Of a stretch of 64,000 nucleotides of DNA, positions 6,305 through 64,000 are shown one piece after another. This stretch comes from Thermomicrobiales bacterium. Lineage in GTDB: Bacteria; Chloroflexota; Chloroflexia; Thermomicrobiales; UBA6265. Both the position numbers and the translations under genes were made by a program. The DNA lies in contig OZ244595.1 of assembly GCA_965218235.1 (NCBI GenBank), positions 1,062,561 to 1,126,560 of the forward strand, in the 5' to 3' direction. Under the pieces are notes generated by a model. The model made no database searches. It worked only from the letters and a program-made list of their open reading frames with translations, and was not told where the DNA came from. The first letter of the stretch is position 1. Each line of letters begins with the position of its first letter.

Positions 6305-7198
6305 ATGTCCACGCGCTGGACGTCCAGGCATCTTCGCCTCAGTCTCGGGCGCATCCCAATGGAGGTCGCGATGTCGGTTGGTGCCCTCGAGGTCGATGAT
6401 CAGATCGCATCCCGTGTGGAGCGTGTGACTGGCTCGGATCTCTACATCGTTCCGGGCGGCCGGGTCGTGTCCGGCGACATCCATGAGGTCCCGCCTCGTT
6501 CCTGGCAGGGTGCGGTCGTCGCGATTCCCGTCGGTCCAGACACGGTCCGGGTCGAGGCGACGTTGCCGATTGGGGGCGTCATGGACCCCGGTGTCGCCTA
6601 TCACCTGATCAAGCGATCGCTCGACATCGTGGTGGCTCTCCTCGCCATCGTCCTGCTCCTCCCGTTGATCTTGATGATCGCCATAGCTATCCGGGTCAAT
6701 AGCCCTGGACCGATCCTGTTTCGTCACCGCCGTGTAGGGCGGGACGGAGTTCCCTTCTCGTGCCTGAAGTTTCGAACGATGGTGGCGGACGCCGATACGC
6801 GACTCAAGACCGATGCAACGCTTCAGGCGGAATTGATGCTCAAGTGGAAGTTGAATCGTGATCCTCGCGTGACGTCAGTGGGTCGAGTCCTCCGCAAGAC
6901 GAGCGTCGACGAACTTCCCCAACTCCTGAATGTTCTCAAAGGACAGATGAGCCTTATTGGTCCTCGGCCGGTGCCTCGCGTTGAGTTCGATGCGAATTAT
7001 CATCGACATGGCCATCTGATCTTCAGCGTGCGACCGGGGATTACCGGCCTCTGGCAGGTGTCGGGAAGATCGAGTCTCACCTACGAGGAGCGAATCGCGC
7101 TGGACCTCGATTATGTCCGAAGCCGCTGCTTCTGGATGGAACTTCGGATTCTCGTGATGACCATTCCCGCGGTTCTCCTGAGGCGGGGAGCAGTCTGA
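6305..7198 (+). CDS. Bacterial sugar transferase (polyprenyl-phosphate glycosyl-1-phosphate transferase, priming enzyme)
   Basis: [21 protein letters not shown] helix. Motifs [42 protein letters not shown] and [14 protein letters not shown]. The true start may be downstream at MEVAMSVG. Confidence 0.85.
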
Positions 7199-8546
7199 TG
7201 ACCCTTGAGAGGCTCAATCTCCTGATTGTCGGCCTCAACTATTGGCCGGAAGACACGGGAAGCGCTCCCTACACGACAGGCGTGGCTGAAGCCATGGCGG
7301 CGCGCGGGGCAAACGTCACGGTGCTGGCAGGCATGCCCTATTATCCAGGCTGGCGGGTTTCGGCGTCCTATGCCGGCCGGCTCTCCATGACCGAACGACA
7401 CAATGGTGTCACGATCCATCGAGTTCGTCAGTATGTCCCGGGCCGGCAGTCGGCGGCTCGTCGTGGTTTCTCGGAACTCTCCTTCCATTCGCACCTGCTA
7501 AGACTGTCTCGTCTATCCCGACCTGATCTCATCCTTGCCTCGATGCCGTATGTCGCGAACGGCGTCCTGGGTAGATGGGCGAGTCGGCGCTTTCACGTGC
7601 CGTATGGGCTCATCATCCAGGACCTGTCCAGTCAGGCAGCTGCTCAGTCATCCATTCGTGGGGGAACACGAGTCGCAACGATATTACGGTCAGTCGAAGG
7701 TCGAATGCTTCGCGATGCCGCTGGCGTTGGTCTCGTGGCGGACGGCTTCCGGGCCAGCGTCGAGGCGATGGGGGTCGCGCACGACCGGATCACGATGCTC
7801 CCGAACTGGTCGCACGTCTCGTCGCCGACCGGTGACCGGACGCGGACCCGGGCCGAGCTGGGCTGGGACGACGCGACGCAGGTCGTCCTGCACGCCGGGA
7901 ACATGGGGCTGAAGCAGGGGCTGGAGCACGTCGTCGCGGCCGCGCGGGTCGCGGAACAGCGCGAGGATCCCGTCCGGTTCATACTGATGGGGGATGGCAA
8001 CCAACGGGTCGCCCTGACGATACTCGCCCGTGGAACCGCCGCCATCGAGTTCCTGCCCCCGCAGCCCGCCGACCGGTTCATGGATGTCCTTGCCGCTGCC
8101 GACGTCCTGCTCGTCAATGAGCGAGCGAGCGTCGTCGACATGTCGCTACCCAGCAAGCTGACGTCGTACTTCATGGCGGGCCGCGCCGTCGTAGCCGCGA
8201 CGAACCCGCTGGGAATCACCGCCCAGGAGGTGTCGCGGTCCGGGGCGGGAGTCTCGGTCCCGGCGGAGGATCCGGAGTCGCTGCTGGCGGCGCTGGGAGC
8301 GCTCCGGGCCGACCCGGCGCTGGCCGGCGAGCTCGGCGCCAACGGCCCGCGTTACGCCGCCGCTCACCTCGGGGCGGACGCCGCCTACGATCGGGTCGAG
8401 CGGTTCCTGGAGGGGTTGCTCGGCGACGCGCCAGCGCGAACTGTCGTGGGCGGTCCGGTTCCCACCCCGACCCAAGCCTCAGCCATGCCCGTCGCCGGAC
8501 GCGACGTCGCGGCGGCGAGCACCGTACGGATTGGAGACATCGGGCG

Positions 8547-8550
<4 letters not shown>
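7198..8550 (+). CDS. GT4-family glycosyltransferase, WcaI-like
   Basis: [39 protein letters not shown]-terminus is typical of WcaI-type GT4. Its start overlaps the upstream stop (ATGA). Confidence 0.8.
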
Positions 8551-10591
<2,041 letters not shown>

Positions 10592-51010: not shown

Positions 51011-52135
51011 TTGGCTCAGCCAGTAGCGGATCCGCTAGCCGCGACTTCGGCCGTGGTGTGTATGCACGCCACTGAGCCGTCAAGTGTGTATTTGTCCTGT
51101 CGCGCCCGCTGTGGCGCGAGCCGGGCTGACATCGATCACGCGTTGTACACCGATCGTACGATTGTCCGGCAACTGGCGATGCGCCGTACGGTGTTTGCCT
51201 GTCCGCGTGACATGCTGCCTGGGGTCCTCGGTAGCGCCGCTGCCCGGGTAGCGGCTCAACAAGCCAACCAACTTGCCAGAATCATCGTCGCCGACGGAAT
51301 CGCCGACGATGGGAGCGCCTGGGTCCGCCAAACCTGCGATGCGACGCTTGCGCTGTTGAGAGAGGCGCCCGCCACGACGGCACAGCTACGTGCGCGTCTG
51401 CCGGCACTTCAAGAGCGGATCACGCCACCTGAGCGACGAGGGGCAGCTCGAATGCCAGTCGCCTCCCGAGTACTCACCGTGCTGGGAGCCGGTGGCCGTG
51501 TCGTCCGGGGGGTGAACGTCGGCGGCTGGAAGACATCGCGACCAATATGGACGATCGCCGAGGATTGGCTGAGGAGTCCAACGGTGGCGCTTCCTGAGCC
51601 GGAGGGCTACGCCGATCTGATCAGCCGCTGGCTCTGGGCCTTCGGTCCGGGTACTGAAGACGATATGACGTGGTGGCTGGGCGCAACGAGAACGGCTGTG
51701 CGCAGGGCTCTTTCCGACCTTGCTGCTGTACCTGTGCGGCTCGAGGACAGCTCGCCGGCGTGGCTGCATCCGGACGAGGTTGATGAGGTACCCGCAGTTG
51801 CGGATTGGGCGGCGCTGCTGCCAGCACTCGACCCAACGACAATGGGTTGGCGAAGGCGTGACTTCTATATCGACAAGAACACCGTCCCATCGATCTATGA
51901 CCGCGCCGGTAATGGCAGACCGACCGCCTGGTGGAACGGGCGTACCGTCGGTGGTTGGACGCAGGAAGACGATGGCACAGTTGTCGTTCTGCCTGTCTTG
52001 CCGCTGCCGCAGACCGCGATCGCAGCACTTCGAAAAGAGGCGAGAGACCTGACTGAATGGCTCAGCGGCGACGTCATTCGCTCAAGCATGCAGTCACCAT
52101 TGATCGATGGGACGGTCTGCCCAGTGATTCGATGA
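51011..52135 (+). CDS. Winged-helix AlkZ/YcaQ-like protein (putative crosslink DNA glycosylase family)
   Basis: LYTDRTIVRQLAMRRTVFACPRDMLP ... C-terminal WWNGRTVGGW pattern. TTG start. The N-terminus looks short. Confidence 0.6.
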   Translation: MAQPVADPLAATSAVVCMHATEPSSVYLSCRARCGASRADIDHALYTDRTIVRQLAMRRTVFACPRDMLPGVLGSAAARVAAQQANQLARIIVADGIADDGSAWVRQTCDATLALLREAPATTAQLRARLPALQERITPPERRGAARMPVASRVLTVLGAGGRVVRGVNVGGWKTSRPIWTIAEDWLRSPTVALPEPEGYADLISRWLWAFGPGTEDDMTWWLGATRTAVRRALSDLAAVPVRLEDSSPAWLHPDEVDEVPAVADWAALLPALDPTTMGWRRRDFYIDKNTVPSIYDRAGNGRPTAWWNGRTVGGWTQEDDGTVVVLPVLPLPQTAIAALRKEARDLTEWLSGDVIRSSMQSPLIDGTVCPVIR

Positions 52136-53246: not shown

Positions 53247-54109
53247 GAGCGTGTCATGGACTCTGCGGGGGTCGTAAACTCAGCAAATGAGCACGATCTC
53301 CCGCAAGCCCTACCCGAGCGACGTGACGGACGACGAGTGGGCCTTCGTCGCCCCCTACCTGACGCTGATGACCCCGGACGCCCCGCAGCGCCGGCATGAT
53401 CCCCGCGAGGTTTTCAACGCCCTGCGCTGGATGGTGCGGACCGGCTCGCCGTGGCGCTATCTGCCCGGCGATCTGCCGCCGTGGGCAGCGGTCCACCAGC
53501 AGACGCTGCGCTGGATCGCCGCCGGCTGCTTCGAGGAGATGGTCCACGACCTGCGGGCGCTGCTGCGCGAAGCGAGCGGCCGCGATCCCGATCCCACCGC
53601 GGTGATCCTGGACGCGCGGACCCTGCGCGGCACCCCGGAGAGCGGGCACCGGGCCGGCTACGACGGGCACAAGAAGACCCGCGGCAGCAAGCTCCACGCG
53701 GCGGTCGACACGCTGGGGCACCTGCTGGCGCTGCGCGTGACGCCGGCCAACGATCAGGAGCGGGCGCAGGTGGGCGAGCTGGCGGACGCGGTGCAGGCGG
53801 CGACCGGCAACACCGTGGAACTGGCCTGGGTCGATCAGGGCTACACGGGGGAGGAGCCGGCTGACGAGGCGGAGGCACGCGGGATCGAGCTGGTCGTGGT
53901 CCGGCTGCCGGGAGCAAAGAAGGGCTTCGTCTTGCTGCCGCGGCGCTGGGTGGTGGAGCGCTCGTTCGCCTGGGCGACGCGCTTCCGGCGGCTGGCCAAG
54001 GACTATGAGCGCCTGCCCACGACCGTGGCCGGCTTGCATTTCGTCGCCTTTGCCTGCCTCATGCTTCACAAACTCTCGCTCCTGCCACTCGGAAGTCCAT
54101 GACACGCTC
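53247..54109 (+). mobile_element. Complete IS5-family insertion sequence (IS427-like size), about 0.86 kb
   Basis: Terminal inverted repeats GAGCGTGTCATGGAC (53247-53261) and GTCCATGACACGCTC (54095-54109) are perfect. They are flanked by TA on both sides (53245-46 and 54110-11). Confidence 0.85.
53287..54102 (+). CDS. IS5-family DDE transposase
   Basis: PYPSDVTDDEWAFVAPYL...REVFNALRWMVRTGSPWRYLP (DUF4096-type N-terminus). DDE_Tnp_1 body AVILDARTL...LHAAVDTLGHLLAL...VDQGYTG. Confidence 0.9.
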   Translation: MSTISRKPYPSDVTDDEWAFVAPYLTLMTPDAPQRRHDPREVFNALRWMVRTGSPWRYLPGDLPPWAAVHQQTLRWIAAGCFEEMVHDLRALLREASGRDPDPTAVILDARTLRGTPESGHRAGYDGHKKTRGSKLHAAVDTLGHLLALRVTPANDQERAQVGELADAVQAATGNTVELAWVDQGYTGEEPADEAEARGIELVVVRLPGAKKGFVLLPRRWVVERSFAWATRFRRLAKDYERLPTTVAGLHFVAFACLMLHKLSLLPLGSP

Positions 54110-56263: not shown

Positions 56264-56821
56264 ATGGACCTGGCGCTCGCTGTCCATCTGGTACACACAG
56301 TAGACCGACACTCGAATAAGTCTACCCTGGAGCCCTCGAGCCCTCAAGAGTTGATGCAGCTGGCCCAGCAGATCCGGACCAGTAATCCGCAACCCTTACC
56401 GATCGAGCCCGCTCGAGCCCCGACGAAGAGTCTCCGGCGACGGTTCTCTCCCCAAGAGATCGAAGATCTTGTAGCTCGATACAACGCTGGAGCGGCCATT
56501 CGGGCGTTGAGTTTAGAGTACGGTGTTTCGAGGAGTGGGCTTCGGCAGCTCCTCCAAGCTGAGGGTGTGACGTTGCGGGTACAAGGGATCATGCCGGAAG
56601 ATGCCGAAAAAGCGGTGCGACTTTACGAAACCGGGCTTACGATCAGGCAGGTCGTGGACCTGGTTGGCTACTCGTATGGCACGATCCGGTCAGCGCTCCA
56701 TGAGAACGGTGTCGCCATGCGAGCAGGCCGTGGCGGCATGGGCCACGCGCTGGAACACGGCCGACACCCGCACCAAGCTGCGCCGCCTCTACCCGACATA
56801 GGACGGTTGACAGACCACTAA
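56264..56821 (+). CDS. Tandem-HTH protein resembling the C-terminal half of small serine recombinases (no catalytic domain, likely relic)
   Basis: Two repeats: FSPQEIEDLVARYNAGAAIRALSLEYGVSRSGLRQLL and PEDAEKAVRLYETGLTIRQVVDLVGYSYGTIRSAL. No resolvase Ser-domain lies upstream. The start is uncertain. Confidence 0.4.
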   Translation: MDLALAVHLVHTVDRHSNKSTLEPSSPQELMQLAQQIRTSNPQPLPIEPARAPTKSLRRRFSPQEIEDLVARYNAGAAIRALSLEYGVSRSGLRQLLQAEGVTLRVQGIMPEDAEKAVRLYETGLTIRQVVDLVGYSYGTIRSALHENGVAMRAGRGGMGHALEHGRHPHQAAPPLPDIGRLTDH

Positions 56822-57943
56822 GTACATTCACAGAATTTCTGCGGGATGTGGCTGTACGCCAATGATCGAGCGCATCTGTTTGGGTACGTGATTGTACCGG
56901 TCAAAGAAGGCGGTTGCGGCGGCGATGAGCGCCTTGACGGTCGGGAAGAGTTCGCAGTGGGTGACTTCCCGCCGGAAGTGCCGCCAGAGCATCTCGATCG
57001 GATTGAGCCATGGGCTGTAGCTTGGAAGATAGAGCAGGACGAGACGGCCCGCCGCACCACGCACCACCGCCTCGATCTCATCGCCTTCGTGGGTGGAGGC
57101 GTTGTCCCATGCCACATAGATGGTTCCGGCGGGATGCTTCTCCACCAACGCCTCAAGGAGTTCGGCGATTTCGCGCCGTCGTTTATGCCGGCGGATGAGG
57201 ACGACGGTCTGGCCGGCATGGTAATCCACCGCCCCAATGCCGTACCGTTTCTGTGGCTGGCCAGGCGTTGAAATCATCACCTGCTGGCCTTTGGGACTCC
57301 ACATGGCCGTGAGCGTTGGTAGCCAACTCAGGTTGAACTCGTCGGCATAGTAGAAGTGATCATCGGGGGCGAGGTGGTCACGCATGGCTTCAATCGTCTT
57401 TTTTTGAGCGCGTACGCCGGGTCGGGGCTGGTGATCGTGTGCTGCGGCCGGCTCAGCACGATGCCGACGGCTTTCAGATGCAGGCGCACGGTCTCGTCGG
57501 CAACCCGGATCCCGGTTTGCTCCGCCAGGTAGTCGGCAAGTCGCTGCAAGGTCCACAGTGAGAACGGCAGATCCAGGCTCCGGGGCCGGCGCCGCACGGC
57601 GGCAAGCAACTGGTCGACATAGGCCGCGGTGACCTTGCTGGGCGCTCCGGGATGGGGCTGGTCGCGCAGCCCTTCGATCCCCTCACTCAGGTAGCGTTTG
57701 AGCCAGCGTCGCACCGTGTCCTCGCTCATGCGCACGATGCCGGCAATGGCCGCCGCCGTTAGGTGCTGCTCCCCGGCCAACAACACCATCTGGACCCGGG
57801 TCCGCAGGCGGACATCGCGGCAGGTTCGGTACACCTCGTCCAAGGCGTCAAGCTGCGTCGAGGTGAGTTCGGGAATGCGTACGGGCTGCATCGCCGCCTC
57901 CTTTTTCTCAGCATACACCCCGCAACTTCTCTTTGGTTGTACT
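56821..57943 (-). mobile_element. Complete IS630-family insertion sequence, about 1.12 kb
   Basis: Imperfect terminal IRs AGTACATTCACAGAATTTCTGCGG versus the reverse complement AGTACAACCAAAGAGAAGTTGCGG. Flanked by the TA dinucleotide typical of IS630/Tc1 (56819-20 and 57944-45). Confidence 0.85.
56828..57891 (-). CDS. IS630-family transposase encoded in two frames joined at an A7 run
   Basis: OrfA (HTH) reads MQPVRIPELTS...PDPAYALKK. OrfB (DDE) reads KKTIEAMRDH...YADEFNLSW...VAWDNASTH...YLPSYSPWLNPIEMLW. The frames differ by -1 at CTCAAAAAAAGAC (plus-strand T7 at 57399-57405). RBS AAGGAGG precedes the ATG at 57891. Confidence 0.8.
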
Positions 57944-58149
57944 TAGATCGTCTGCGAGAACGAAACGGCCCTGCGGCAGTCTACAGTGTCAACAGCAAGG
58001 ACTATCCTTCCATCCGTAGGCCTGCCGAGCTGATCTCGACTATTGACGATGGGGCTGGCGCCAGGACCACTTCGGGTTTCCAGGCGGCCGACCGATTACT
58101 TGGGTGTGAGGCGATCTCTACCTCATAGCCTGGGACATGCTAGGGCGGG

Positions 58150-58980
58150 ATGCATTCTGATGGACAGGCTCGACACGGGCGAGGAGTGAGACCGAAGAGC
58201 ATGACGGAGCAATCGGCTCGGCCACCGACCACCCCAAAGCGGCAACTCAAGCAGTACAAGCGCCGCCCCGACGTCGATCTCCAGATCGACGAAGCGCTCA
58301 CCCTCGATCCCGCCGACCTGCGTCGGCGCGTCAATATCGTCTCCCCGACCGAGGAGGGATATTTCAAGGCTGAAACGATCGTCTACTTGCTACGCGAAGC
58401 TCACGCTGTGGGCGATCAGGAGCGCGTGGGCTGGCTTTGGACCTCACTCGTCAGCCGCTCCAAGGGTTACGTCAGAGGGTGGCTGGGTGGCTTGTCTCGC
58501 GAGCTGCAGGGGGAAGCCGTCGACGCTGTCTGGGATCGACTCATCGGGAAACTGCTGGCGCCTGATCACAGCGGGGACTACTACGAGGTTTCCTACTGGG
58601 ACGCGCTGGAGAAGCGGTCCGTCGACGTCTTCCGGAGCTTCACGGCGAAGACGAGTGCTTATCAAGAGACAAGTGTATCCGCCGTCCAGCTCCGCGCCGC
58701 GGACGACGCGGCTGAGCTAGATCCGGTCGATTTGGACCGTTCCTGGCAGCCCGAGTTTGCCACCCTCAACCAGGATGGGAGTCAGAGGATTCTCGCCCTC
58801 ATCCCCGAGCAGTACCGAGAGGCCTTCTACCTCTACGCCGTCGAGGGCTGGCCACTCTCGAGCTCAGATCCCCACCGACCGTCACTTTGCAAGAAGTTCA
58901 ACAGAACACCGGAAACGATACGGACGTGGCTGAGGCGGGCCCGCGCCGCTGCCAAGGAAGGGCTTGGAGAGCAACCATGA
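58150..58980 (+). CDS. Sigma-70-family-like protein (divergent, ECF-sized)
   Basis: The C-terminal IPEQYREAFYLYAVEGWPL...SLCKKFNRTPETIRTWLRRARAAAKE looks like a region-4 HTH. A region-2-like helix AVDAVWDRLIGKLL is present. An alternative start lies at 58201 (MTEQSARPP). Confidence 0.5.
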   Translation: MHSDGQARHGRGVRPKSMTEQSARPPTTPKRQLKQYKRRPDVDLQIDEALTLDPADLRRRVNIVSPTEEGYFKAETIVYLLREAHAVGDQERVGWLWTSLVSRSKGYVRGWLGGLSRELQGEAVDAVWDRLIGKLLAPDHSGDYYEVSYWDALEKRSVDVFRSFTAKTSAYQETSVSAVQLRAADDAAELDPVDLDRSWQPEFATLNQDGSQRILALIPEQYREAFYLYAVEGWPLSSSDPHRPSLCKKFNRTPETIRTWLRRARAAAKEGLGEQP

Positions 58981-59624
58981 GCGAGCGACCGCAGGACGAG
59001 CGCCTGGAGCGCATCCTCAACGAATTCGTGACGGAGGTGCCGTCACCGCACGCCTCCCACGTTGGAGCCTGGATGGCTCGCTTCCCCGAGTACGGTGACG
59101 AGATCATGGCTTTCGCCGCAAGCTGGGCCATGATGAGGGTGTCGCCCCGCAGCCCTAACGTGATCACCGAAGAAGAGGTCGAGGCGCGGGGTCTGGCTGC
59201 ACTCGAACGGTTGCGTTCAGAGTCGGGTGCGTCGAACCATGGAGCGGCATCGGGTGGCATCACGTCGTTGATGCCACCCGGCTCCTCGCTCGACGACCTG
59301 GCCGAACATGCTGGCCTGAGTGTCCCTCTGTGGCGGCAGATCAGCCTGCGCCAGATCGCGAATGTGCCACCCGATGTGATCAAGGACATAGCGGCAGCTA
59401 TCCAGACGTCGTATCAGGCGGTGGCTGACTTCATTCGACAGGGACCACCCCTCGCCGCCCCTGGACATTACAGGGCGGCGGAACAACCCCGGGTAAGCGA
59501 ACCACTCGACTTCTTCGAGGAAGTCCGGCTTGACGACGACCTCACAGAGAGCCAGAAAGCCCGCCTCCTCGCGATGGGTTCGAACACCGCAGAGGATGGC
59601 CTCACCGGCGGACTGATCCGATGA
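58977..59624 (+). CDS. HTH-containing protein (ImmR/XRE- or anti-sigma-like partner), hypothetical
   Basis: ATGA overlap with the upstream stop. Central LDDLAEHAGLSVPLWRQISLRQIANV helix-turn-helix-like segment. 215 aa. Confidence 0.45.
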   Translation: MSERPQDERLERILNEFVTEVPSPHASHVGAWMARFPEYGDEIMAFAASWAMMRVSPRSPNVITEEEVEARGLAALERLRSESGASNHGAASGGITSLMPPGSSLDDLAEHAGLSVPLWRQISLRQIANVPPDVIKDIAAAIQTSYQAVADFIRQGPPLAAPGHYRAAEQPRVSEPLDFFEEVRLDDDLTESQKARLLAMGSNTAEDGLTGGLIR

Positions 59625-62600
59625 ATGACTGGAGTGCGGAGCGACGTGCCGCCAGGTCGCTCCGCACTCGAGCTGGGGCCGAACATCTCTCGCTCGCTTC
59701 CGACGTGATCGCGGCCATCGCGATATTGACCAAGGTGAAGTCGTCGAGCGTCCGCGAGGGGCGTTCCCTTCTGGACGGCGGTCAAGCCAAGCTTGATATC
59801 GACGCGAAGCGAATCTGGTACAGCGCCGCGATCGAGCCCTCGGTACTGCCATTCTTCCTCGCCCACGAGTACGCGCACCTCGAGCTCAATCATGGCGGGT
59901 GCCGAGGTAGAGCGGGCGACGTCGACGTCGAGGCCACCGGCACGGAGATGGACGCCGGCATCGAGCGGGTTCAGGGCTACAGCCCACAGGAGCGACGAGA
60001 ACGAGCGGCCAATATCTTCGCCCAAGAACTGTTGCTGCCGACCCCGCTCCTGCGTCGGTGGTTCCTGGACGACGGGCTGGGCGCTACCGCGATAGCGAAC
60101 CGCGTCAGGCTCGACGTGGGACTCGTTCGCCGCCAGCTGATGGCCGCGCTCCTCGACGTGACCAACGACGCCGCTGTCCAGGAGGATGGTAGCAACGAGG
60201 CCGACGACGAGGTCATGGGTGCGGGTAAGGTTGCGCCGACGACGGACACCGTCCCGGCCGCTCTGGACGACAGCCAGGCCGCCGCCGCGTACGTCGACCA
60301 GGGCCCCTTCCTGCTCGAGGCTGGCCCGGGAACCGGGAAGACCCGGACGCTGATCGCACGCATCCTCCACCTCCTCGCACGGGGCGCCCGGCCTGACCAG
60401 ATCGTGGTGCTGACCTTCAGCAACCGAGCGGCAGCGGAGATCCGGGATCGGGTGGCCCTGACCATGCCGGGAGCCGAGGCGGACCTATGGGTCGGCACGT
60501 TCCACGCCTTCGGCCTTGAGCTGCTTCGCCAGTATGGTCCCCGGATCGGTCTGCCCAAGCAGCTGGACATACTCGACCCGTTCCGGGCACTGCAGTTCCT
60601 GGAGGAGAACCTGCTGCAGCTCGGGTTGGCCCACTACCAGCAGCTCTCGCGCCCGTCACAGCCGCTGCGCGACATCGCGAAGGCCATCTCGCGGGCCAAG
60701 GACGAGCTCTGCGAACCCGATGACTATCGCGGGCACGCCGAGAAGATGTTGATCCGGGCCCAGGAGCGGCGGGATGACGAGGCCATCCTCGTGGCGGAGA
60801 AGGCGATCAAGGTCGCCCACGTCTACCGCTTCTATCAGGATCACCTGGAGCGCAGCGGACTGGTCGACTTCGGTGACCTGATCGTCCGGACGGTGAAGCT
60901 CCTACGGGACGACGCCGGGTTGCGGGACGAGGTTCGCGACCGGTACCGCTACGTCCTCGTCGACGAATACCAGGACGTCAACCACGCCTCCACCGAGCTG
61001 GTCCGGGAACTGGCGGGAGCAGGGGAGGGGCTATGGGTCGTCGGCGACCCACGTCAGGCCATCTACCGCTTCCGTGGTGCCGACCCGAGCAACGTCTCCC
61101 GGTTCACCGAGCACTTCCCGACGGCTAGTCGATCAGCTCTGCGCTTTCAACTACCGCTCTCGCCCTGTGATCATCGAGGCCGTGTCGGGCCTCGCCGGCG
61201 TCATGAAGGCCGCCGACGGGTCAGTGCCTGAGCCCTGGCAGTCGACGCGGGTCGACACGCGTGGTGAGATAGGCCTCGGTATCGCCGCCACGTTCGAGGA
61301 CGAGATGGCCGGCATCGTCGCGGCTATCCGGCAGTACCAGGCGGCCAAGGTGCCGTTCAGGGACCAGGCGGTCCTCTGCCGCACCCATACGATCCTCGGC
61401 CGCGTCGCCGGGGCGCTCAAGGCGGCCGGGATACCCACGCAGTACTTTGGCAACCTGTTCGAGCGGGAAGAGACGCGCGACATGCTGGCGCTCCTCTCGC
61501 TGGCGGCCGAGGCCGACGGCGTCAGCCTGATACGCGTGGCCACCTTGCCCGAATACGCCATCCCGGCCGCCGATGTCGCCCAGCTGCTCGACGCGGCCGG
61601 GGACCGCGCGATGGCCTTCCCGCAGGCACTCTCGCTCACGTCGACCCTGCAGGATCTCTCCGCTGAAGGTCGCGCTGGTTTGGAGCGTCTCGCGGACCAT
61701 CTGGGAGATGTCCCCTTCACGACCGGCCCCTGGGGGTTCCTGAGCCGCTACCTCCTAGAGGTGAGCCAGTACCTCGCGTCCCTGGCCCGTGACGCCAGTG
61801 TCGAGGGGGCCATCAGCCGGTCAGCCCTACTGGCCTTCCTCGACGTTGTTCATGGCTATGAGCGGGCCAACCGGACACCGGACCTGCCGGGCAGGGATGT
61901 GGCTCAGTTGAAGTCCGGCTTCCTCAAGCATGTGCGCGACCTGCAGGTCTACGGCGAGGAGCGACAGTACCGGCAGCCACCCGACCTGCCTGATGGCGTC
62001 GACGCGGTCCGCGTGATGACCATGCACGCCAGCAAGGGGCTGGAGTTTCCGGTCGTGTACCTGCCCTACCTTGGTGGGCAGTACATACCGCAACCCAGGC
62101 AGTCCGACGACTGCCCGCCGCCGGACGGGATGGTCGCCAACCCGGTGTCGGACAACGACACCGACGAGCTCAATGTGTTCTTCGTCGCCGTGTCGCGGGC
62201 GCAGGATGCGCTCTTGCTGTCCCGGGCCGAGCGGTATGGCGATGCGTCCAGCAACGCGTCAAAGTTCCTTGCACACGTCCAGCCCTGGTTGCCCCGGAAG
62301 GCAGACAGCTCGCCGTGGTGGCTTTCGCAGGCCGATCCTCCCATGCCAAGGTCGGGGACAGGAGCCAACCTCGGACGTGACCTGTTCGGTGACCGGGAGC
62401 TGGAGACCTACATCCGGTGCCCCCGACAGTATTACTACGATCGCGTATTACGTCTCGAGGGGCGGTTCGGCGGGACGGCATCGCTGCGGTTCCACCGGTC
62501 GATCCAGCGCACCCTGCGTTGGGTCGAGGGTGTCCACACTGGACCAGCCGGTCAGGCGCCGGCGAACGCCGAGGTCCTTGACCAGCTGGACGCGATCTGG

Positions 62601-63116
62601 GCGGAGACCGGCCCGGTCACGCACCCCTACGAGCCGCTCTACCGGACTGAGGCCAGGCGGATGGTACTGCTGGCCGCGGGCTGGCTGCACCAGCGCGCGG
62701 GGACCTTTGAGGAAGTCACGCTGGAGATCCCGGTCGGCGATGCCCAGGTCCGGTTCCGGCCACACCAGGTCGAGCGGATCGGCACCTCCGACGCGAGGAT
62801 CCGGCGGATTCGCACGGGTCGCGTGCCGCGGAAAGCTCCTGACGACGACCGCGATGCTCTCTACATGTTGGGGACCGGCCAGATCGGGGGCCGCGTGGAC
62901 GCCGAGGCGATGTACCTTGGCGGGGCTGAGGTAAAGATCGAGCCGATCAATCTCTCCCCGAAGAAACGTGCTACACGCATCGAGCACTACCGTGAGGCCA
63001 TCGAGGGCATCAGAGCTGGCGAGTTCCCGGCTAGGCCCAGCAGCCGGCAGTGCCCAGGCTGCCCGTTCCTCTTCATCTGCCCTGCGCCGGAGCCACCCAC
63101 ACTCCCGGCCGGCTGA
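59621..63116 (+). CDS. ImmA/IrrE-like Zn-peptidase + UvrD/PcrA-type SF1 helicase + Cas4/AddB-like 4-Cys PD-(D/E)XK nuclease fusion. The reading frame is broken once near 61.12-61.15 kb.
   Basis: Peptidase motifs FFLAHEYAHLELNHG (HExxH) and ERAANIFAQELLLP. Helicase motifs I AGPGTGKT, Ia VLTFSNRAAAEI, II LVDEYQDVN and III VVGDPRQAIYRFRGA are in the 59621..61231 frame. Motif IV NYRSRPVI, HASKGLEFPVVYL and FVAVSRAQDAL are in the 61074..63116 frame. The C-terminus has YIRCPRQYYY ... RQCPGCPFLFICP. ATGA overlap with the upstream gene. Confidence 0.75.
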
Positions 63117-63256
63117 CTACTTCCGGTTTTTCTGACGGCTCCCGATTACTCCAGTGTGAGGGGATGTCGCCGGCGCCGTGCCGGCGCCCCGCACCGGTCG
63201 GCTGTCTCGCTGACCGCTTATTGGACCGCCCTCACCAGGGCAAGGAGACCGTCACC

Positions 63257-63568
63257 ATGGTCAACCCGACCACCATTTTGCGGCCGATTAAGCCGCGCAA
63301 GGAGATCAAGGTCACCGTCCGCTACCCGGCCGCCGCCAAACCCTTCAAGGACAACAACGCCGCCATCGACGAGACTGTCGGTGAGCTCAAGGTCCGGGTG
63401 CTGCGCGCGTTCGGCCTCGACGCCGGTGGCGACGCCGTGAGCTATCAGCTGTTCCACGGGCGGGCCGCCCTGGATGAAACCCGCACCCTCGGGTCAATCG
63501 AGGCCAACGAGGGCGATGCTGACCGCGAGCTTCAGCTGAAGTTCGCGCAGCAGATCACGCAGGGCTGA
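63257..63568 (+). CDS. Small beta-grasp (ubiquitin-like) candidate ending in Gly-stop
   Basis: 103 aa. RBS AAGGAGA lies 8 nt upstream. Alternating beta-strand pattern EIKVTVRY...TVGELKVRVLRAFGL...SYQLFHG...LQLKF. The terminal residues are QQITQG followed directly by the stop. Adjacent to the E2-like ORF. Confidence 0.55.
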   Translation: MVNPTTILRPIKPRKEIKVTVRYPAAAKPFKDNNAAIDETVGELKVRVLRAFGLDAGGDAVSYQLFHGRAALDETRTLGSIEANEGDADRELQLKFAQQITQG

Positions 63569-63571
63569 TCG

Positions 63572-64000
63572 GTGGACCAGCAGCTAGCCGCGCTCAACCT
63601 TCAGCTGGACCTGGAGCAGATCCGCCAGGAGGTCCTCCCGGCGGAACTGGATCGCTGGGCGATTGCGTTGGTCGGTCCTGTCTGCCTCGACGTCAGCCTC
63701 TCGCCTGGTCGCGACCCCGTCGAGCGCTACCAGGCCCGACTGACTTGGCCGGACTACCCGGACCGGCCACCCTCGGTCCGCTTCGTCGAGCCCGCGACGG
63801 GCCGCCTCGACCTGAGCCGGGCCTGGCCCGATTTTCCCGGCGTCCGCCCGCCGCAGGATATCTCCGCCCCCTGGACCAGCGACGGTCACGCAGCCCACCC
63901 CGAGTGGCACGCTGATTCCCGCTACCGGTGGTCCAGCCACGGCAACCCGCTGCTCCGGATCCTCCGCACGCTCCAGGAACAACTGGACGACGAATACCTA
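63572..64000 (+). CDS. E2/UBC-fold-like protein, 5' partial (runs off the window), Ser at the expected active-site position
   Basis: A GTG lies 3 nt after the Ubl stop, in the same frame, open to the window end (143 codons). It is not in the ORF track because it has no stop. RWAIALVGP...ARLTWPDYPDRPPSVRFVEP...AWPDFPG...DISAPW parallels the E2 pattern W.a.I.GP...F...YP..PP.V.F...HPN...G.IC. Confidence 0.55.
   Translation, partial: MDQQLAALNLQLDLEQIRQEVLPAELDRWAIALVGPVCLDVSLSPGRDPVERYQARLTWPDYPDRPPSVRFVEPATGRLDLSRAWPDFPGVRPPQDISAPWTSDGHAAHPEWHADSRYRWSSHGNPLLRILRTLQEQLDDEYL

What the first reader, a model, noticed from the sequence alone, without database searches (positions are those of the whole stretch)
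63257..63568. 103-aa protein with beta-grasp-like strand pattern and a naked C-terminal glycine
- Seen: the ORF ends ...KFAQQITQG-TGA, so Gly is the last residue and no processing would be needed. The RBS is strong, and the gene sits 3 nt before the E2-like ORF.
- Inference: it is a conjugatable Ubl.
- Only a single terminal Gly is present, not GG. There is one beta-grasp-length domain, unlike the tandem ISG15-like BilA.
Basis: inference. Interest (0 to 1): 0.7.

Follow-up and report, generated by a model that had tools for sequence, protein, structure and literature searches.

The report
Single-domain bacterial ubiquitin-like protein (Bil-type)
This small gene encodes a genuine bacterial ubiquitin-like protein that belongs to an already described type of anti-phage "Bil" ubiquitination operon, so it is real but not new, and in this genome its partner E2 enzyme has lost its catalytic cysteine.

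Summary
Window 63257-63568 (+) is a 103-aa gene ending ...QQITQG-TGA, with AAGGAG 9 nt upstream and an E2-like ORF starting 3 nt after its stop.

The AlphaFold2 model (pLDDT 80) is a beta-grasp. Its best PDB matches are Caldiarchaeum ubiquitin, ATG8/GABARAP, FAT10 and ubiquitin.

The family has about 120 clusters at 50% identity. The aligned C-terminal residue is Gly in every member tested: 88/88 cluster representatives and 75/75 metagenome loci. About two thirds end exactly at that Gly; the rest carry 1-10-residue tails.

Wherever enough DNA is available (more than 85 loci across more than 8 phyla), the gene order is Ubl-E2-JAB-E1. The partner genes match PADLOC BilB/BilC/BilD and the solved E. 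aridi BilC and BilD. The Ubl family matches the second beta-grasp of BilA.

This is therefore a single-domain BilA-type Ubl. Single-domain Bil Ubls with an exposed Gly are already published, so it is a new member of a known kind.

Two caveats apply to this genome:
- The E2 has Ser98 where 119/120 homologs have Cys, including a relative 96.5% identical in DNA.
- The upstream M78-UvrD-nuclease gene carries a 1-nt frameshift.

Conjugation in this host is therefore doubtful. The JAB and E1 genes lie beyond the window end.

The parts
63257..63568 (+). Ubl gene (BilA-like, single beta-grasp, 103 aa). The Gly103 codon GGC is at 63563-63565 and is directly followed by TGA.
   Evidence: sequence; family and invariant Gly; beta-grasp model and ubiquitin-like fold matches; PADLOC BilA: window protein E=0.009, 31/64 family members, best 9.5e-10; dN/dS 0.16-0.32.
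63242..63247 (+). Shine-Dalgarno-like AAGGAG, 9 nt upstream of the ATG.
   Evidence: The motif is conserved as A(A/G)GGAG in L011, L001 and L004.
63117..63256 (+). Intergenic region of 140 nt between the helicase-nuclease gene and the Ubl gene, with overlapping GC-rich palindromes at 63161-63192. It is a candidate promoter/operator region.
   Evidence: palindromes; it is 75-96% identical to L001, L004 and L011, as conserved as the flanking coding DNA. No sigma-70 consensus and no Rfam match. The function is inferred only.
63572..64000 (+). E2 gene (BilB-like, UBC fold), cut by the window end. The full-length product is P0137 (147 aa), so 5 codons and the stop are missing.
   Evidence: PADLOC BilB: 36/46 family members, best 7e-8; P0137 is 100% identical; AF2 pLDDT 93.7; Foldseek matches UBE2G2, UBE2L6, UbcH7 and E. 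aridi BilB 8tz0_C, TM 0.67.
63863..63865 (+). Codon TCC = Ser98 of the E2, at the position of the family's invariant, putatively catalytic Cys (TGC in relatives).
   Evidence: 119/120 homologs have Cys, only the window protein has Ser, and L011 (96.5% nt identity) has Cys; in E. aridi BilB the equivalent Cys138 with a nearby conserved His is catalytic, and C138A abolishes conjugation.
59621..63116 (+). Gene for a Peptidase_M78 (HExxH) - UvrD-like SF1 helicase - PD-(D/E)XK nuclease fusion. It is a single 1164-aa protein in relatives. Here it is split into ORFs 59621-61231 and 61074-63116 by one extra T at 61145.
   Evidence: domains; single 1164-1167-aa gene in L001, L004, L011; indel position; HExxH invariant; dN/dS 0.29 downstream of the frameshift.
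58977..59624 (+). Gene for a ~215-aa protein with a weak HTH match, overlapping its neighbours by 4 nt. It is a candidate repressor partner of the M78 domain (CapH-like by position).
   Evidence: HTH_31 E about 0.05 only; conserved 215-aa gene in L001 and L011. The role is inferred.
58150..58980 (+). Gene for a 259-276-aa protein with a sigma-70 region-4-like C-terminal HTH. It is the first gene of the conserved block.
   Evidence: Sigma70_r4_2 E=3e-6; conserved in L001 and L011.

Best explanation
The ORF encodes a ubiquitin-like modifier of the Bil (bacterial ISG15-like) type. It has a disordered tail of about 15 residues, then one beta-grasp domain, and its C-terminal tail ends in Gln-Gly with the Gly carboxylate already exposed.

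In the family, the gene is the first of a four-gene cassette: Ubl, E2 (BilB-like), JAB/JAMM peptidase (BilC-like) and a two-domain E1 (BilD-like).

Inferred mechanism, by homology with the experimentally studied Collimonas and Ensifer Bil systems:
1. The E1 adenylates Gly103 and takes the Ubl onto its catalytic Cys.
2. The E1 passes it to the E2 Cys.
3. The E2 transfers it to lysines of target proteins. In the one type I system studied, the target is a phage tail protein.
4. The JAB peptidase removes conjugates. In family members with 1-10-residue tails or Ubl-E2 fusions, it also trims the precursor.

This copy needs no trimming.

The cassette behaves like an immune operon. In relatives it is preceded by known 'controller' modules (CapH/CapP-like HTH+M78, or CapK/CapS-like). 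In the window's clade it is preceded by an M78 peptidase fused to a UvrD helicase and a PD-(D/E)XK nuclease.

In this genome the E2 catalytic Cys is replaced by Ser and the helicase gene is frameshifted. The Ubl is probably still activated by E1, but conjugated inefficiently or not at all.

What is shown here: gene structure, family, invariant Gly, predicted fold, synteny, and the Cys-to-Ser change. What is inferred: every catalytic step, the targets, the defence role and the regulation.
For: Sequence and family:
- Sequence and spacing are as reported.
- 120 cluster representatives were found. All 88 that reach the end of the profile have Gly there: 56 end at that Gly, 28 have 1-10-aa tails, and 4 have longer extensions, 3 of them Ubl-E2 fusions.
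- In 80 metagenome loci, 75/75 Ubls have Gly at the profile end.
- dN/dS for the Ubl is 0.16-0.53.

Fold:
- The AF2 model has pLDDT 80.4 and a beta-beta-alpha-beta-beta-(alpha)-beta order.
- Foldseek top PDB hits are Caldiarchaeum ubiquitin (E=2.8e-6), ATG8/GABARAP, FAT10 and ubiquitin, with 166 hits at E<=1e-3.
- Viral-library hits are all ubiquitin-like.

Partner genes:
- L001 genes match PADLOC BilB (3e-7), BilC (4e-11) and BilD (3e-28).
- The best PDB sequence hits are E. aridi BilD 8tyz (2e-22) and BilC 8tyx (2.5e-9).
- The E2 model has a UBC fold, with best TM-score to E. aridi BilB.
- JAMM HxH...SxxD motifs, the E1 GxGxxG motif, CxxC zinc motifs and a conserved CYS-domain Cys are present in relatives.

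Synteny (Ubl-E2-JAB-E1):
- 8 distinct loci found by exact protein look-up.
- 20/20 genome loci from 8 or more phyla.
- 57/58 assessable metagenome loci.
- 2 plasmids.

Regulators:
- HTH+M78 pairs lie upstream in L007-L010. A CapK/CapS-like pair lies upstream in L006 and the Janibacter plasmid.
- CapH/CapP and CapK/CapS are published neighbours of Bil operons (PMC10557695, PMC13373217).

Published mechanism:
- BilA's terminal Gly is fully conserved, and G163L abolishes defence (10.1101/2023.09.04.556158).
- E1 C417A and E2 C138A abolish conjugation, and BilC trims tails after the conserved Gly (PMC10557695).
Against: - No conjugation, defence or expression data exist for this protein or its subfamily.
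- The window protein's own match to BilA is weak (E=0.009). No curated Pfam or NCBIfam model covers it.
- The JAB and E1 genes of this genome lie beyond the window and could not be retrieved. Their presence is inferred from L011, which is 96.5% identical over 7.7 kb.
- The window E2 has Ser98 instead of the invariant Cys, plus D73E at a position that is 96% Asp. It carries 10 derived substitutions against 3 in the L011 lineage.
- The Ubl itself has Phe96 where at least 90% of the family have Leu.
- The helicase gene is frameshifted.
- Subtype assignment is unresolved. The Ubl has one domain, unlike type I. The E2 does not match the type II CEHH model (2/46 weak hits) or the E. aridi BilB sequence.
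Confidence: 0.85

Rival explanations
1. The locus is a decaying relic in this strain. The Ubl gene is still intact, but the pathway no longer conjugates anything, because the E2 lost its nucleophile and the upstream helicase-nuclease gene is broken.
For: - E2 Ser98 against Cys in 119/120 homologs, including the 96.5%-identical L011.
- In E. aridi BilB, C138A abolishes conjugation (PMC10557695).
- There are 10 derived E2 substitutions in the window lineage against 3 in L011, including D73E at a position that is 96% Asp.
- The Ubl has L96F at a nearly invariant position.
- A 1-nt insertion at 61145 splits the 1164-aa gene.
- IS630-type transposase remnants lie next to the block.
Against: - The Ubl and E2 reading frames are intact.
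- Window-versus-L011 dN/dS is 0.16 for the Ubl and 0.46 for the E2, only modestly raised. It is 0.29 for the helicase downstream of the frameshift. Any inactivation is therefore very recent.
- The frameshift lies in a short T run and could be an assembly error.
- Ser can still accept a Ubl as an oxyester.
Confidence: 0.4
2. The Ser98 E2 is functional, and the pathway in this strain runs through an E2~Ubl oxyester, as Bub pathways do.
For: - Bub E1 and E2 enzymes work entirely through oxyester intermediates (PMC11601596).
- From general knowledge: eukaryotic E2 Cys-to-Ser mutants are charged by E1 to form stable oxyesters.
- The E2 ORF is otherwise intact, with the invariant His109 retained.
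Against: - This is a single recent change in one lineage. All 119 other homologs, including the nearest relative, keep Cys.
- From general knowledge: Cys-to-Ser E2s discharge very slowly.
- No compensating change can be assessed, because the E1 of this genome is not visible.
Confidence: 0.12
3. It is a sulfur-carrier protein of the ThiS/MoaD type, activated by a ThiF-like enzyme for thiocarboxylate formation rather than for protein conjugation.
For: - It has a beta-grasp fold with a C-terminal Gly.
- A ThiF-family adenylating enzyme is in the operon.
Against: - No ThiS/MoaD Pfam match in any of 64 family members.
- The terminus is Q-G, not G-G.
- None of the 50 PDB fold matches listed is a ThiS/MoaD-type sulfur carrier; nearly all are ubiquitin, ATG8, FAT10 or other ubiquitin-like domains.
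- An E2 and a JAB peptidase are always present.
- The E1 is a ~500-aa two-domain BilD-type enzyme with a CYS-domain Cys.
- No thiamine or molybdopterin genes are in the neighbourhoods listed.
Confidence: 0.02
4. It is a non-conjugated beta-grasp adaptor, for example YukD-like, whose terminal Gly is incidental.
For: Weak sub-threshold YukD hits: E=0.19 for the window protein and 3/64 family members.
Against: - The Gly is invariant at the end of the profile in 88/88 and 75/75 proteins.
- Tails, where present, are short and unconserved, as in published BilA precursors.
- Linkage to E1, E2 and JAB is strict.
- No type VII secretion genes are nearby.
Confidence: 0.03

Closest known systems
Type I BilABCD (Bil, bacterial ISG15-like) anti-phage system, e.g. 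Collimonas sp. OK412 (Millman 2022; Hor et al. 2024)
   Same: - The gene order is Ubl-E2-JAB-E1.
- All four proteins match the PADLOC Bil models: BilA, family best 9.5e-10; BilB, 7e-8; BilC, 4e-11; BilD, 3e-28.
- The Ubl ends in a fully conserved Gly, and a minority of homologs carry short overhangs, exactly as reported for BilA.
   Different: - The Ubl has one beta-grasp domain rather than two, and aligns only to the second domain of BilA.
- Matches are weak, and Pfam BilB-like/DUF7665 is hit only below threshold (14/46).
- The host range found here is mainly soil Acidobacteriota, Myxococcota, Actinomycetota and others.
Type II BilABCD (formerly CEHH/6C operons), e.g. Ensifer aridi TW10 (Chambers et al. 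2024; PDB 8tyx, 8tyz, 8tz0)
   Same: - The gene order is the same.
- 78% of type II Ubls have a single beta-grasp. They have a conserved Gly with tails of up to 9 residues, trimmed by BilC.
- The best PDB sequence relatives of the E1 and JAB, and the best TM-score for the E2 model, are the E. aridi proteins.
- Both associate with CapH/CapP regulators.
   Different: - The E2 family does not match Pfam Metal_CEHH (2/46 weak hits) or the E. aridi BilB sequence.
- It lacks the long beta4-to-Cys loop (Cys98 here against Cys138).
- The Ubl profile does not hit E. aridi BilA by sequence.
Bub (bacterial ubiquitination-like) operons (Ye et al. 2024)
   Same: - They are Ubl/E1/E2 pathways in immune-type contexts, with CapK/CapS regulators.
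- A few members of this family are Ubl-E2 fusions like BubAB (P0023, P0034, P0071).
- The window E2 has Ser at the catalytic position, as Bub enzymes do.
   Different: - The genes are separate, a JAB peptidase is present, and no DUF6527/BubE is listed in any neighbourhood.
- The family E2 nucleophile is Cys in 119/120.
- The Ser is a single-lineage change.
Eukaryotic and archaeal single-Gly Ubls (ATG8, UFM1, Caldiarchaeum ubiquitin)
   Same: - They are the best structural matches.
- From general knowledge: mature ATG8, ATG12 and UFM1 also end in a single Gly rather than GG.
   Different: - Sequence identity is 15-23%.
- The enzymes and the genomic organisation are different.
ThiS/MoaD sulfur carriers
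   Same: They share the beta-grasp fold, a C-terminal Gly, and activation by a ThiF-family enzyme.
   Different: - There is no sequence-model match and no GG terminus.
- E2 and JAB partners are present.
- The fold matches favour ubiquitin-type Ubls.

Membership tests
Bil (BilABCD) operon, broad sense | Four-gene cassette in the order Ubl - E2 - JAB/JAMM peptidase - E1 | tested here: met
   Met in relatives: 8 distinct loci from exact protein look-ups, 20/20 genome loci, 57/58 assessable metagenome loci and 2 plasmids. In the window itself only the Ubl and E2 are visible. JAB and E1 are inferred from L011, which is 96.5% nt-identical.
Bil (BilABCD) operon, broad sense | Ubl with a beta-grasp (ubiquitin-like) fold | tested here: met
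   AF2 model with pLDDT 80.4. Foldseek hits to ubiquitin, ATG8, FAT10 and SUMO-like proteins at E down to 2.8e-6. This rests on a predicted model only.
Bil (BilABCD) operon, broad sense | Conserved C-terminal Gly, exposed or followed by a short unconserved tail | tested here: met
   88/88 representatives and 75/75 metagenome loci have Gly at the profile end. Tails are 0-10 aa, apart from 3 Ubl-E2 fusions and one 26-residue extension. The window protein ends at Gly103.
Bil (BilABCD) operon, broad sense | Sequence homology of all four proteins to BilA-D | tested here: met
   PADLOC: BilA in 31/64 members (best 9.5e-10; window protein only 0.009), BilB in 36/46 (best 7e-8), BilC 4e-11, BilD 3e-28. 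PDB: BilD 2e-22 and BilC 2.5e-9.
Bil (BilABCD) operon, broad sense | E2 with a catalytic Cys and a nearby conserved His | tested here: not met
   Not met in the window copy: Ser98, with His109 retained. Met in the family: Cys in 119/120 and His in 120/120.
Bil (BilABCD) operon, broad sense | Ubl-target conjugation and anti-phage defence | not testable with these tools
Context is suggestive only: CapH/CapP-like and CapK/CapS-like neighbours, type I R-M next to L011, Cap8/SAVED fragments next to L007.
Type I Bil | Ubl with two tandem beta-grasp domains (ISG15-like) | tested here: not met
   One domain in 103 aa, matching only positions 77-142 of the 162-position BilA model. 82 of the 132 Ubl-family proteins retrieved are 90-109 aa long, and no second domain was detected in the longer members by the family HMM.
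Type II Bil (CEHH/6C) | E2 of the CEHH family (Pfam Metal_CEHH; Cys, Glu, His, His) | tested here: not met
   Metal_CEHH: E=0.17 for the window E2 and 2/46 weak hits in the family, none near the cut-off. The E2 profile does not hit E. aridi BilB by sequence. Structural similarity is present (TM 0.67).
Bub operons | Ubl-E2 and/or JAB-E1 or E2-E1 fusions, a DUF6527 (BubE) serine protease, and Ser nucleophiles | tested here: not met
   The genes are separate in all loci, with only 3 Ubl-E2 fusion representatives. No DUF6527 is in the neighbourhood lists. The family E2 has Cys.
ThiS/MoaD sulfur carriers | ThiS/MoaD sequence family, GG terminus, ThiF/MoeB partner without E2 or DUB | tested here: not met
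   No ThiS hit in 64 members. The terminus is QG in 76/88. E2 and JAB are always present.
   Neither model appears among the Pfam hits at E<=0.1 for any of 64 family members. Only scattered weak hits to TUG-UBL1, YukD, ubiquitin, Ufm1 and similar.

The most novel reading that the evidence does not exclude
In the window's clade (window, L011, L001-L003, L004) the Bil cassette may be controlled by a previously undescribed 'controller'. This would be a CapP-like M78 peptidase fused in one 1164-aa protein to a UvrD-type helicase and an Fe-S-type PD-(D/E)XK nuclease, together with a sigma-region-4-like protein and a ~215-aa HTH-like protein.

The helicase-nuclease would process foreign or damaged DNA ends. 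The resulting ssDNA would switch on the fused peptidase in cis, which would cleave the repressor and de-repress Ubl-E2-JAB-E1.

A second, less likely novelty is that the Ser98 E2 is a natural oxyester-using Bil E2.
Probability: 0.25. Interest if true: 0.55.

Novelty: new member of a known kind. Interest (0 to 1): 0.3.

Why it matters
For annotation:
- This subfamily of Bil-type operons is widespread in soil bacteria. At least 173 metagenome stretches and 20 species-representative genomes in more than 8 phyla carry it.
- Its Ubl, E2 and JAB genes are labelled 'hypothetical protein' in the two RefSeq plasmid records examined, and no curated Pfam or NCBIfam model covers the Ubl.
- Recognising the '...QG-stop, ~100 aa, followed by a 146-aa E2' signature would let these operons be called correctly.

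For biology:
- The family adds single-domain Ubls whose enzymes match the PADLOC Bil models, which I take to derive from the type I Bil systems of Millman et al. (2022).
- It shows the same Ubl cassette plugged into at least three different regulator modules.
- It offers a natural Cys-to-Ser E2 variant next to a 96.5%-identical Cys version. That pair is a ready-made test of thioester against oxyester chemistry.

None of this changes the current picture of bacterial ubiquitination.

Tried and rejected
Searches that failed or found nothing:
- Exact-protein look-ups for the window's own Ubl, E2 and helicase ORF found no contig. The DNA beyond 64000 could not be read.
- A genome-contig scan with Ubl patterns found nothing. 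The E2 alignment worked instead.
- A metagenome scan with the M78-fusion N-terminus found nothing. The spread of the helicase fusion outside four loci is therefore unknown.
- No relatives were found in IMG/VR viral contigs or in phage records.
It was rerun with database proteins.
- The first alignment search for E2 homologs timed out.
- My first regex for C-termini was faulty and was replaced by HMM-based mapping.
- Supplementary tables of the Bil papers are not held. I could not check whether these operons are already in the published lists.

Checks on the window that gave nothing:
- Pfam, NCBIfam and PDB sequence searches gave no significant named hit for the Ubl.
- The sigma-70 promoter scan, terminator scan and Rfam gave nothing for the intergenic region.

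Explanations considered and rejected:
- ThiS/MoaD, YukD, Prok_Ub, Multi_ubiq and Bub membership, and a spurious ORF.

Idea not upheld:
- The intergenic region is not more conserved than the genes. It is about equally conserved.
Full report
**1. Observation**

The ORF is exactly as described.
- ATG is at 63257, the ORF has 103 codons, and the last three are T-Q-G followed by TGA at 63566-63568.
- AAGGAG lies at 63242-63247, 9 nt upstream.
- The next ORF starts with GTG at 63572, 3 nt after the stop, and runs off the window end.
- A longer in-frame ORF from GTG 63050 is listed, but homologs begin at the equivalent of 63257.

An ORF of this size means little in 65-68% GC DNA, so I checked that the gene is real by three independent tests.
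- A profile of five close homologs found 120 cluster representatives (clusters at 50% identity) at E<=1e-3, 49 of them at E<=1e-10, among 1.84 billion proteins.
- dN/dS between the window gene and three relatives is 0.16-0.32.
- Its position in a conserved gene cassette is maintained across phyla (section 4).

**2. Fold**

- AlphaFold2 on a 64-sequence alignment gave mean pLDDT 80.4.
- Residues 1-15 are of low confidence. Then come strands at 16-22 and 30-36, a helix at 41-52, a strand at 61-67, a short helix at 78-85 and a strand at 91-100. This is the ubiquitin beta-grasp order.
- Foldseek against the PDB returned 166 matches at E<=1e-3. The top hits are Caldiarchaeum subterraneum ubiquitin (E=2.8e-6), many ATG8/GABARAP/LC3 entries, FAT10, the SUMO-like Rad60 domain, Hub1 and ubiquitin. 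None of the 50 matches listed is a ThiS/MoaD-type sulfur carrier.
- Against predicted viral structures, the top hits are giant-virus ubiquitin-like proteins.
- By sequence alone the signal is weak:
  - No curated Pfam or NCBIfam model matches.
  - The best PDB sequence hits are two ubiquitin-like domains at E=0.12 and 1.3.
  - Across 64 family members, Pfam gives only scattered weak hits to various ubiquitin-like families. None is to Prok_Ub, Multi_ubiq or ThiS.

**3. The C-terminal glycine**

I mapped every retrieved family member onto the profile.
- All 88 proteins whose alignment reaches the last profile position have Gly there.
- 56 end exactly at that Gly and 28 carry 1-10 extra residues.
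- Four have longer extensions. Three of these are Ubl-E2 fusions and one has a 26-residue extension.
- The preceding residue is Gln in 76 of the 88.
- In 80 further metagenome loci, 75 of 75 Ubl ORFs have Gly at the profile end: 50 end there and 25 have tails of 1-10 residues.
- Twelve of 20 genome loci end at Gly. Seven have short tails after the Gly, and one looks frameshifted.

This is the pattern published for BilA:
- The terminal Gly is fully conserved, with 2-9-aa overhangs in a minority, and G163L abolishes defence (10.1101/2023.09.04.556158).
- Type II BilA has a universally conserved Gly followed by up to nine residues, which the JAB peptidase BilC removes (PMC10557695).
- From general knowledge, a single Gly rather than GG is normal for several conjugated Ubls, such as ATG8, ATG12 and UFM1.

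**4. Genomic context**

The window stops inside the E2 gene, so context comes from relatives.

*Closest relative.* L011 is 96.5% identical in DNA to the window over 7.7 kb (window 56289-64000). It carries, on one strand:
- a sigma-region-4-like gene
- a 215-aa gene
- a 1164-aa Peptidase_M78-UvrD-PD-(D/E)XK gene
- the Ubl (103 aa), an E2 (147 aa) and a JAB-like gene (181 aa)
- a ThiF/BilD_N gene

These are flanked by IS630-type remnants and a type I restriction-modification system.

*More distant relatives.* L001-L004, L006 and L007-L010, together with a contig for which only the gene list was available, all show Ubl (~100 aa) - E2 (~146 aa) - ~175 aa - E1 (~500 aa).

*Identity of the L001 partner genes.*
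- They match PADLOC BilB (3e-7), BilC (4e-11) and BilD (3e-28).
- Their best solved relatives are E. aridi E1(BilD) 8tyz (2e-22) and DUB(BilC) 8tyx (2.5e-9).
- The JAB proteins carry HxH...SxxD.
- The E1s carry GxGxxG, two Cys pairs and a conserved Cys in a K-x-I-C-S context. This matches the zinc site and the CYS-domain Cys417 described for E. aridi BilD.

*Wider scans with the E2 alignment.*
- The genome scan found 20 loci in MAGs of Acidobacteriota, Nitrospirota, Myxococcota, Gemmatimonadota, Verrucomicrobiota, Methylomirabilia, Solirubrobacterales and Bacteroidota. All 20 have the four genes in this order.
- The metagenome scan confirmed 173 stretches, of which 80 were kept. 57 of the 58 loci with enough flanking DNA are complete.
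- Two plasmid records carry the cassette: Deinococcus aetherius pDAETH-1 and a Janibacter melonis plasmid. There the Ubl and JAB genes are annotated 'hypothetical protein' and the E1 'ThiF family'. The E2 is 'hypothetical protein' in Deinococcus and has no listed gene in Janibacter.
- No relative was found in viral contigs or phage records.

**5. Which known system**

The Ubl family is homologous to BilA. 31 of 64 members match the PADLOC BilA model (best 9.5e-10). The window protein itself scores only E=0.009, aligned to the second beta-grasp of the two-domain model.

*Evidence on the E2.*
- 36 of 46 family members match BilB, best 7e-8.
- 14 of 46 hit Pfam DUF7665/BilB-like, none at an E-value better than 1.5e-4. 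Only 2 of 46 touch Metal_CEHH, the type II E2 model.
- The E2 profile does not find E. aridi BilB by sequence.
- The E2 model (pLDDT 93.7) is a UBC fold. Its matches include UBE2G2, UBE2L6, UbcH7 and Ubc9, and its highest TM-score (0.67-0.68) is to E. aridi BilB.

*Conclusion on subtype.* The cassette is a Bil operon in the broad sense. Its enzymes match the PADLOC Bil models, which I take to derive from the type I systems of Millman et al. (2022), better than they match the type II CEHH model, while its Ubl has the single-domain architecture typical of type II. I could not place it in a tree with the published sets, because the supplementary tables are not held.

*Published precedent for a single domain.*
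- E. aridi BilA is a single beta-grasp, as are 78% of type II Ubls.

*Architectural variants.* Some longer family members have an N-terminal coiled-coil-like extension (P0008) or repeated extra modules (P0075, P0082). This echoes the published architectural diversity.

The finding is therefore a new member of a known kind.

**6. Regulators and the helicase fusion**

- The more distant loci have an XRE-type HTH gene plus a Peptidase_M78 gene directly upstream (L007-L010 and the contig without DNA). This is the CapH/CapP arrangement reported for 15% of type II Bil operons.
- L006 and the Janibacter plasmid instead have a GHKL-kinase-like gene plus a STAS(DUF4325)-wHTH gene. This is the CapK/CapS arrangement recently reported next to Bil and Bub operons (PMC13373217).
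- Among 41 metagenome loci with at least 2.5 kb upstream, my crude HMMs found CapS with or without CapK in 12, HTH and/or M78 in 10, and a helicase fusion in none.
- In the window's clade the M78 domain keeps its HExxH motif. It forms the N-terminus of a UvrD-type helicase with a C-terminal PD-(D/E)XK nuclease. Two translationally coupled genes with HTH-like regions precede it.
- The two CapP/CapK papers I searched mention no such fusion. This is the most interesting unexplored aspect, but its role as sensor or regulator is inference only.
- The 140-nt intergenic region before the Ubl gene is as conserved as the coding DNA and contains GC-rich palindromes. No promoter consensus or Rfam family matched it.

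**7. State of the locus in this genome**

*The E2 substitution.*
- At E2 residue 98 (TCC, 63863-63865) the window has Ser. 119 of the 120 best homologs have Cys; the single exception is the window's own protein, P0137. L011 reads DICAPW against the window's DISAPW.
- This Cys is the only invariant Cys in the family, and it lies 11 residues before an invariant His.
- In E. aridi BilB the catalytic Cys138 has a nearby His151. Both are conserved in types I and II, and C138A abolishes conjugation.

*Other derived changes.*
- Polarising with a 77%-identical outgroup, the window's E2 has 10 derived substitutions against 3 in L011. They include D73E at a position that is 96% Asp.
- The Ubl has Phe96 where at least 90% of the family have Leu.
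- The helicase-nuclease gene has one extra T at 61145 relative to L011, which splits it into two ORFs.

*Evidence against long-standing decay.*
- dN/dS is 0.16 for the Ubl, 0.46 for the E2 and 0.29 for the helicase downstream of the frameshift.
- Any inactivation is therefore recent, or the indel is an assembly error.

*Alternative.* A Ser E2 could still be charged as an oxyester, as Bub enzymes are (PMC11601596). This remains a minority possibility.

**8. Verdict**

- The system is a Bil-type ubiquitination cassette, a kind already characterised structurally and functionally. The single-domain, Gly-terminal architecture is published.
- What this analysis adds:
  - the definition of a widespread and poorly annotated subfamily with a Q-G terminus
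  - its strict four-gene synteny
  - its three alternative upstream regulator modules, including an undescribed M78-helicase-nuclease fusion
  - the finding that the copy in this window has an E2 without its catalytic cysteine
- Interest is modest, at 0.3.

Noticed in passing
window 63863-63865 (E2 codon 98): The E2 downstream of the Ubl has Ser (TCC) at the position of the family's invariant, putatively catalytic Cys. 119/120 homologs have Cys, as does L011, which is 96.5% identical in DNA.
   Followed up: yes
window 61145 (within 59621-63116): One extra T relative to L011 splits the 1164-aa M78-UvrD-PD-(D/E)XK gene into ORFs 59621-61231 and 61074-63116. It could be a real frameshift or an assembly error. 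dN/dS downstream is still 0.29.
   Followed up: partly
window 58150-63116; L001 942-5871; L004 119-4263; L011 4945-9859: A three-gene block sits directly upstream of the Bil cassette, in this clade only. It comprises a sigma-region-4-like protein, a ~215-aa HTH-like protein, and a Peptidase_M78 domain fused to a UvrD helicase and a PD-(D/E)XK nuclease. Other family loci have stand-alone HTH+M78 (CapH/CapP-like) or CapK/CapS-like pairs in that place. The two Cap regulator papers searched do not mention the fusion.
   Followed up: partly
window 63117-63256: The 140-nt intergenic region is about as conserved as the flanking genes (75-96% identity to L001, L004 and L011). It contains overlapping GC-rich palindromes at 63161-63192. 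It has no sigma-70 consensus and no Rfam match, and may be an operator or promoter.
   Followed up: partly
P0023, P0034, P0071 (representatives): Three family representatives are single polypeptides of about 245 aa, with the Ubl (ending ...QG) fused to the E2, reminiscent of BubAB. They would need cleavage after the Gly. I did not check whether they are true fusions or gene-calling artefacts.
   Followed up: no
P0008, P0075, P0082, P0050/P0070: Longer family members carry extra regions. P0008 has a charged coiled-coil-like N-terminus. P0075 and P0082 have one or two repeated ~70-aa modules before the Ubl. P0050 and P0070 have a C-terminal extra domain after an incomplete Ubl match.
   Followed up: no
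window 56289-57918 and 53287-54102: Transposase ORFs lie just upstream of the block. An IS630-type (DDE_3 plus HTH) element appears split into two ORFs, and its counterparts in L011 are annotated DDE_3/HTH_23. A second ORF pair at 53287-54102 has a DDE-transposase-like sequence (my reading, not tested). Similarity to L011 begins at 56289.
   Followed up: partly
L011 11298-12795: In the 6x-coverage metagenome contig L011 the E1 gene is split into 442-aa and 60-aa ORFs, against a single 509-aa gene in L001. This is probably a frameshift or sequencing error in that contig.
   Followed up: no
L032 (Deinococcus aetherius pDAETH-1, 6620-9425) and L033 (Janibacter melonis plasmid, 6554-9295): In these RefSeq plasmid records the Ubl and JAB genes are annotated 'hypothetical protein' and the E1 'ThiF family adenylyltransferase'. 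The E2 is 'hypothetical protein' in Deinococcus. In Janibacter the E2 region has no listed gene, so it may be a pseudogene.
   Followed up: partly
L007 5002-5575; L011 14295-20312: Neighbours of related cassettes include Cap8 and SAVED fragments (L007) and a complete type I restriction-modification system (L011). This is consistent with defence islands.
   Followed up: no
window 51011-52135: An AlkZ-like DNA glycosylase gene (Pfam E=1.5e-55) lies a few kb upstream. The rest of the window encodes polysaccharide-synthesis, LuxR-type and BNR-repeat proteins, typical of a chromosome.
   Followed up: no
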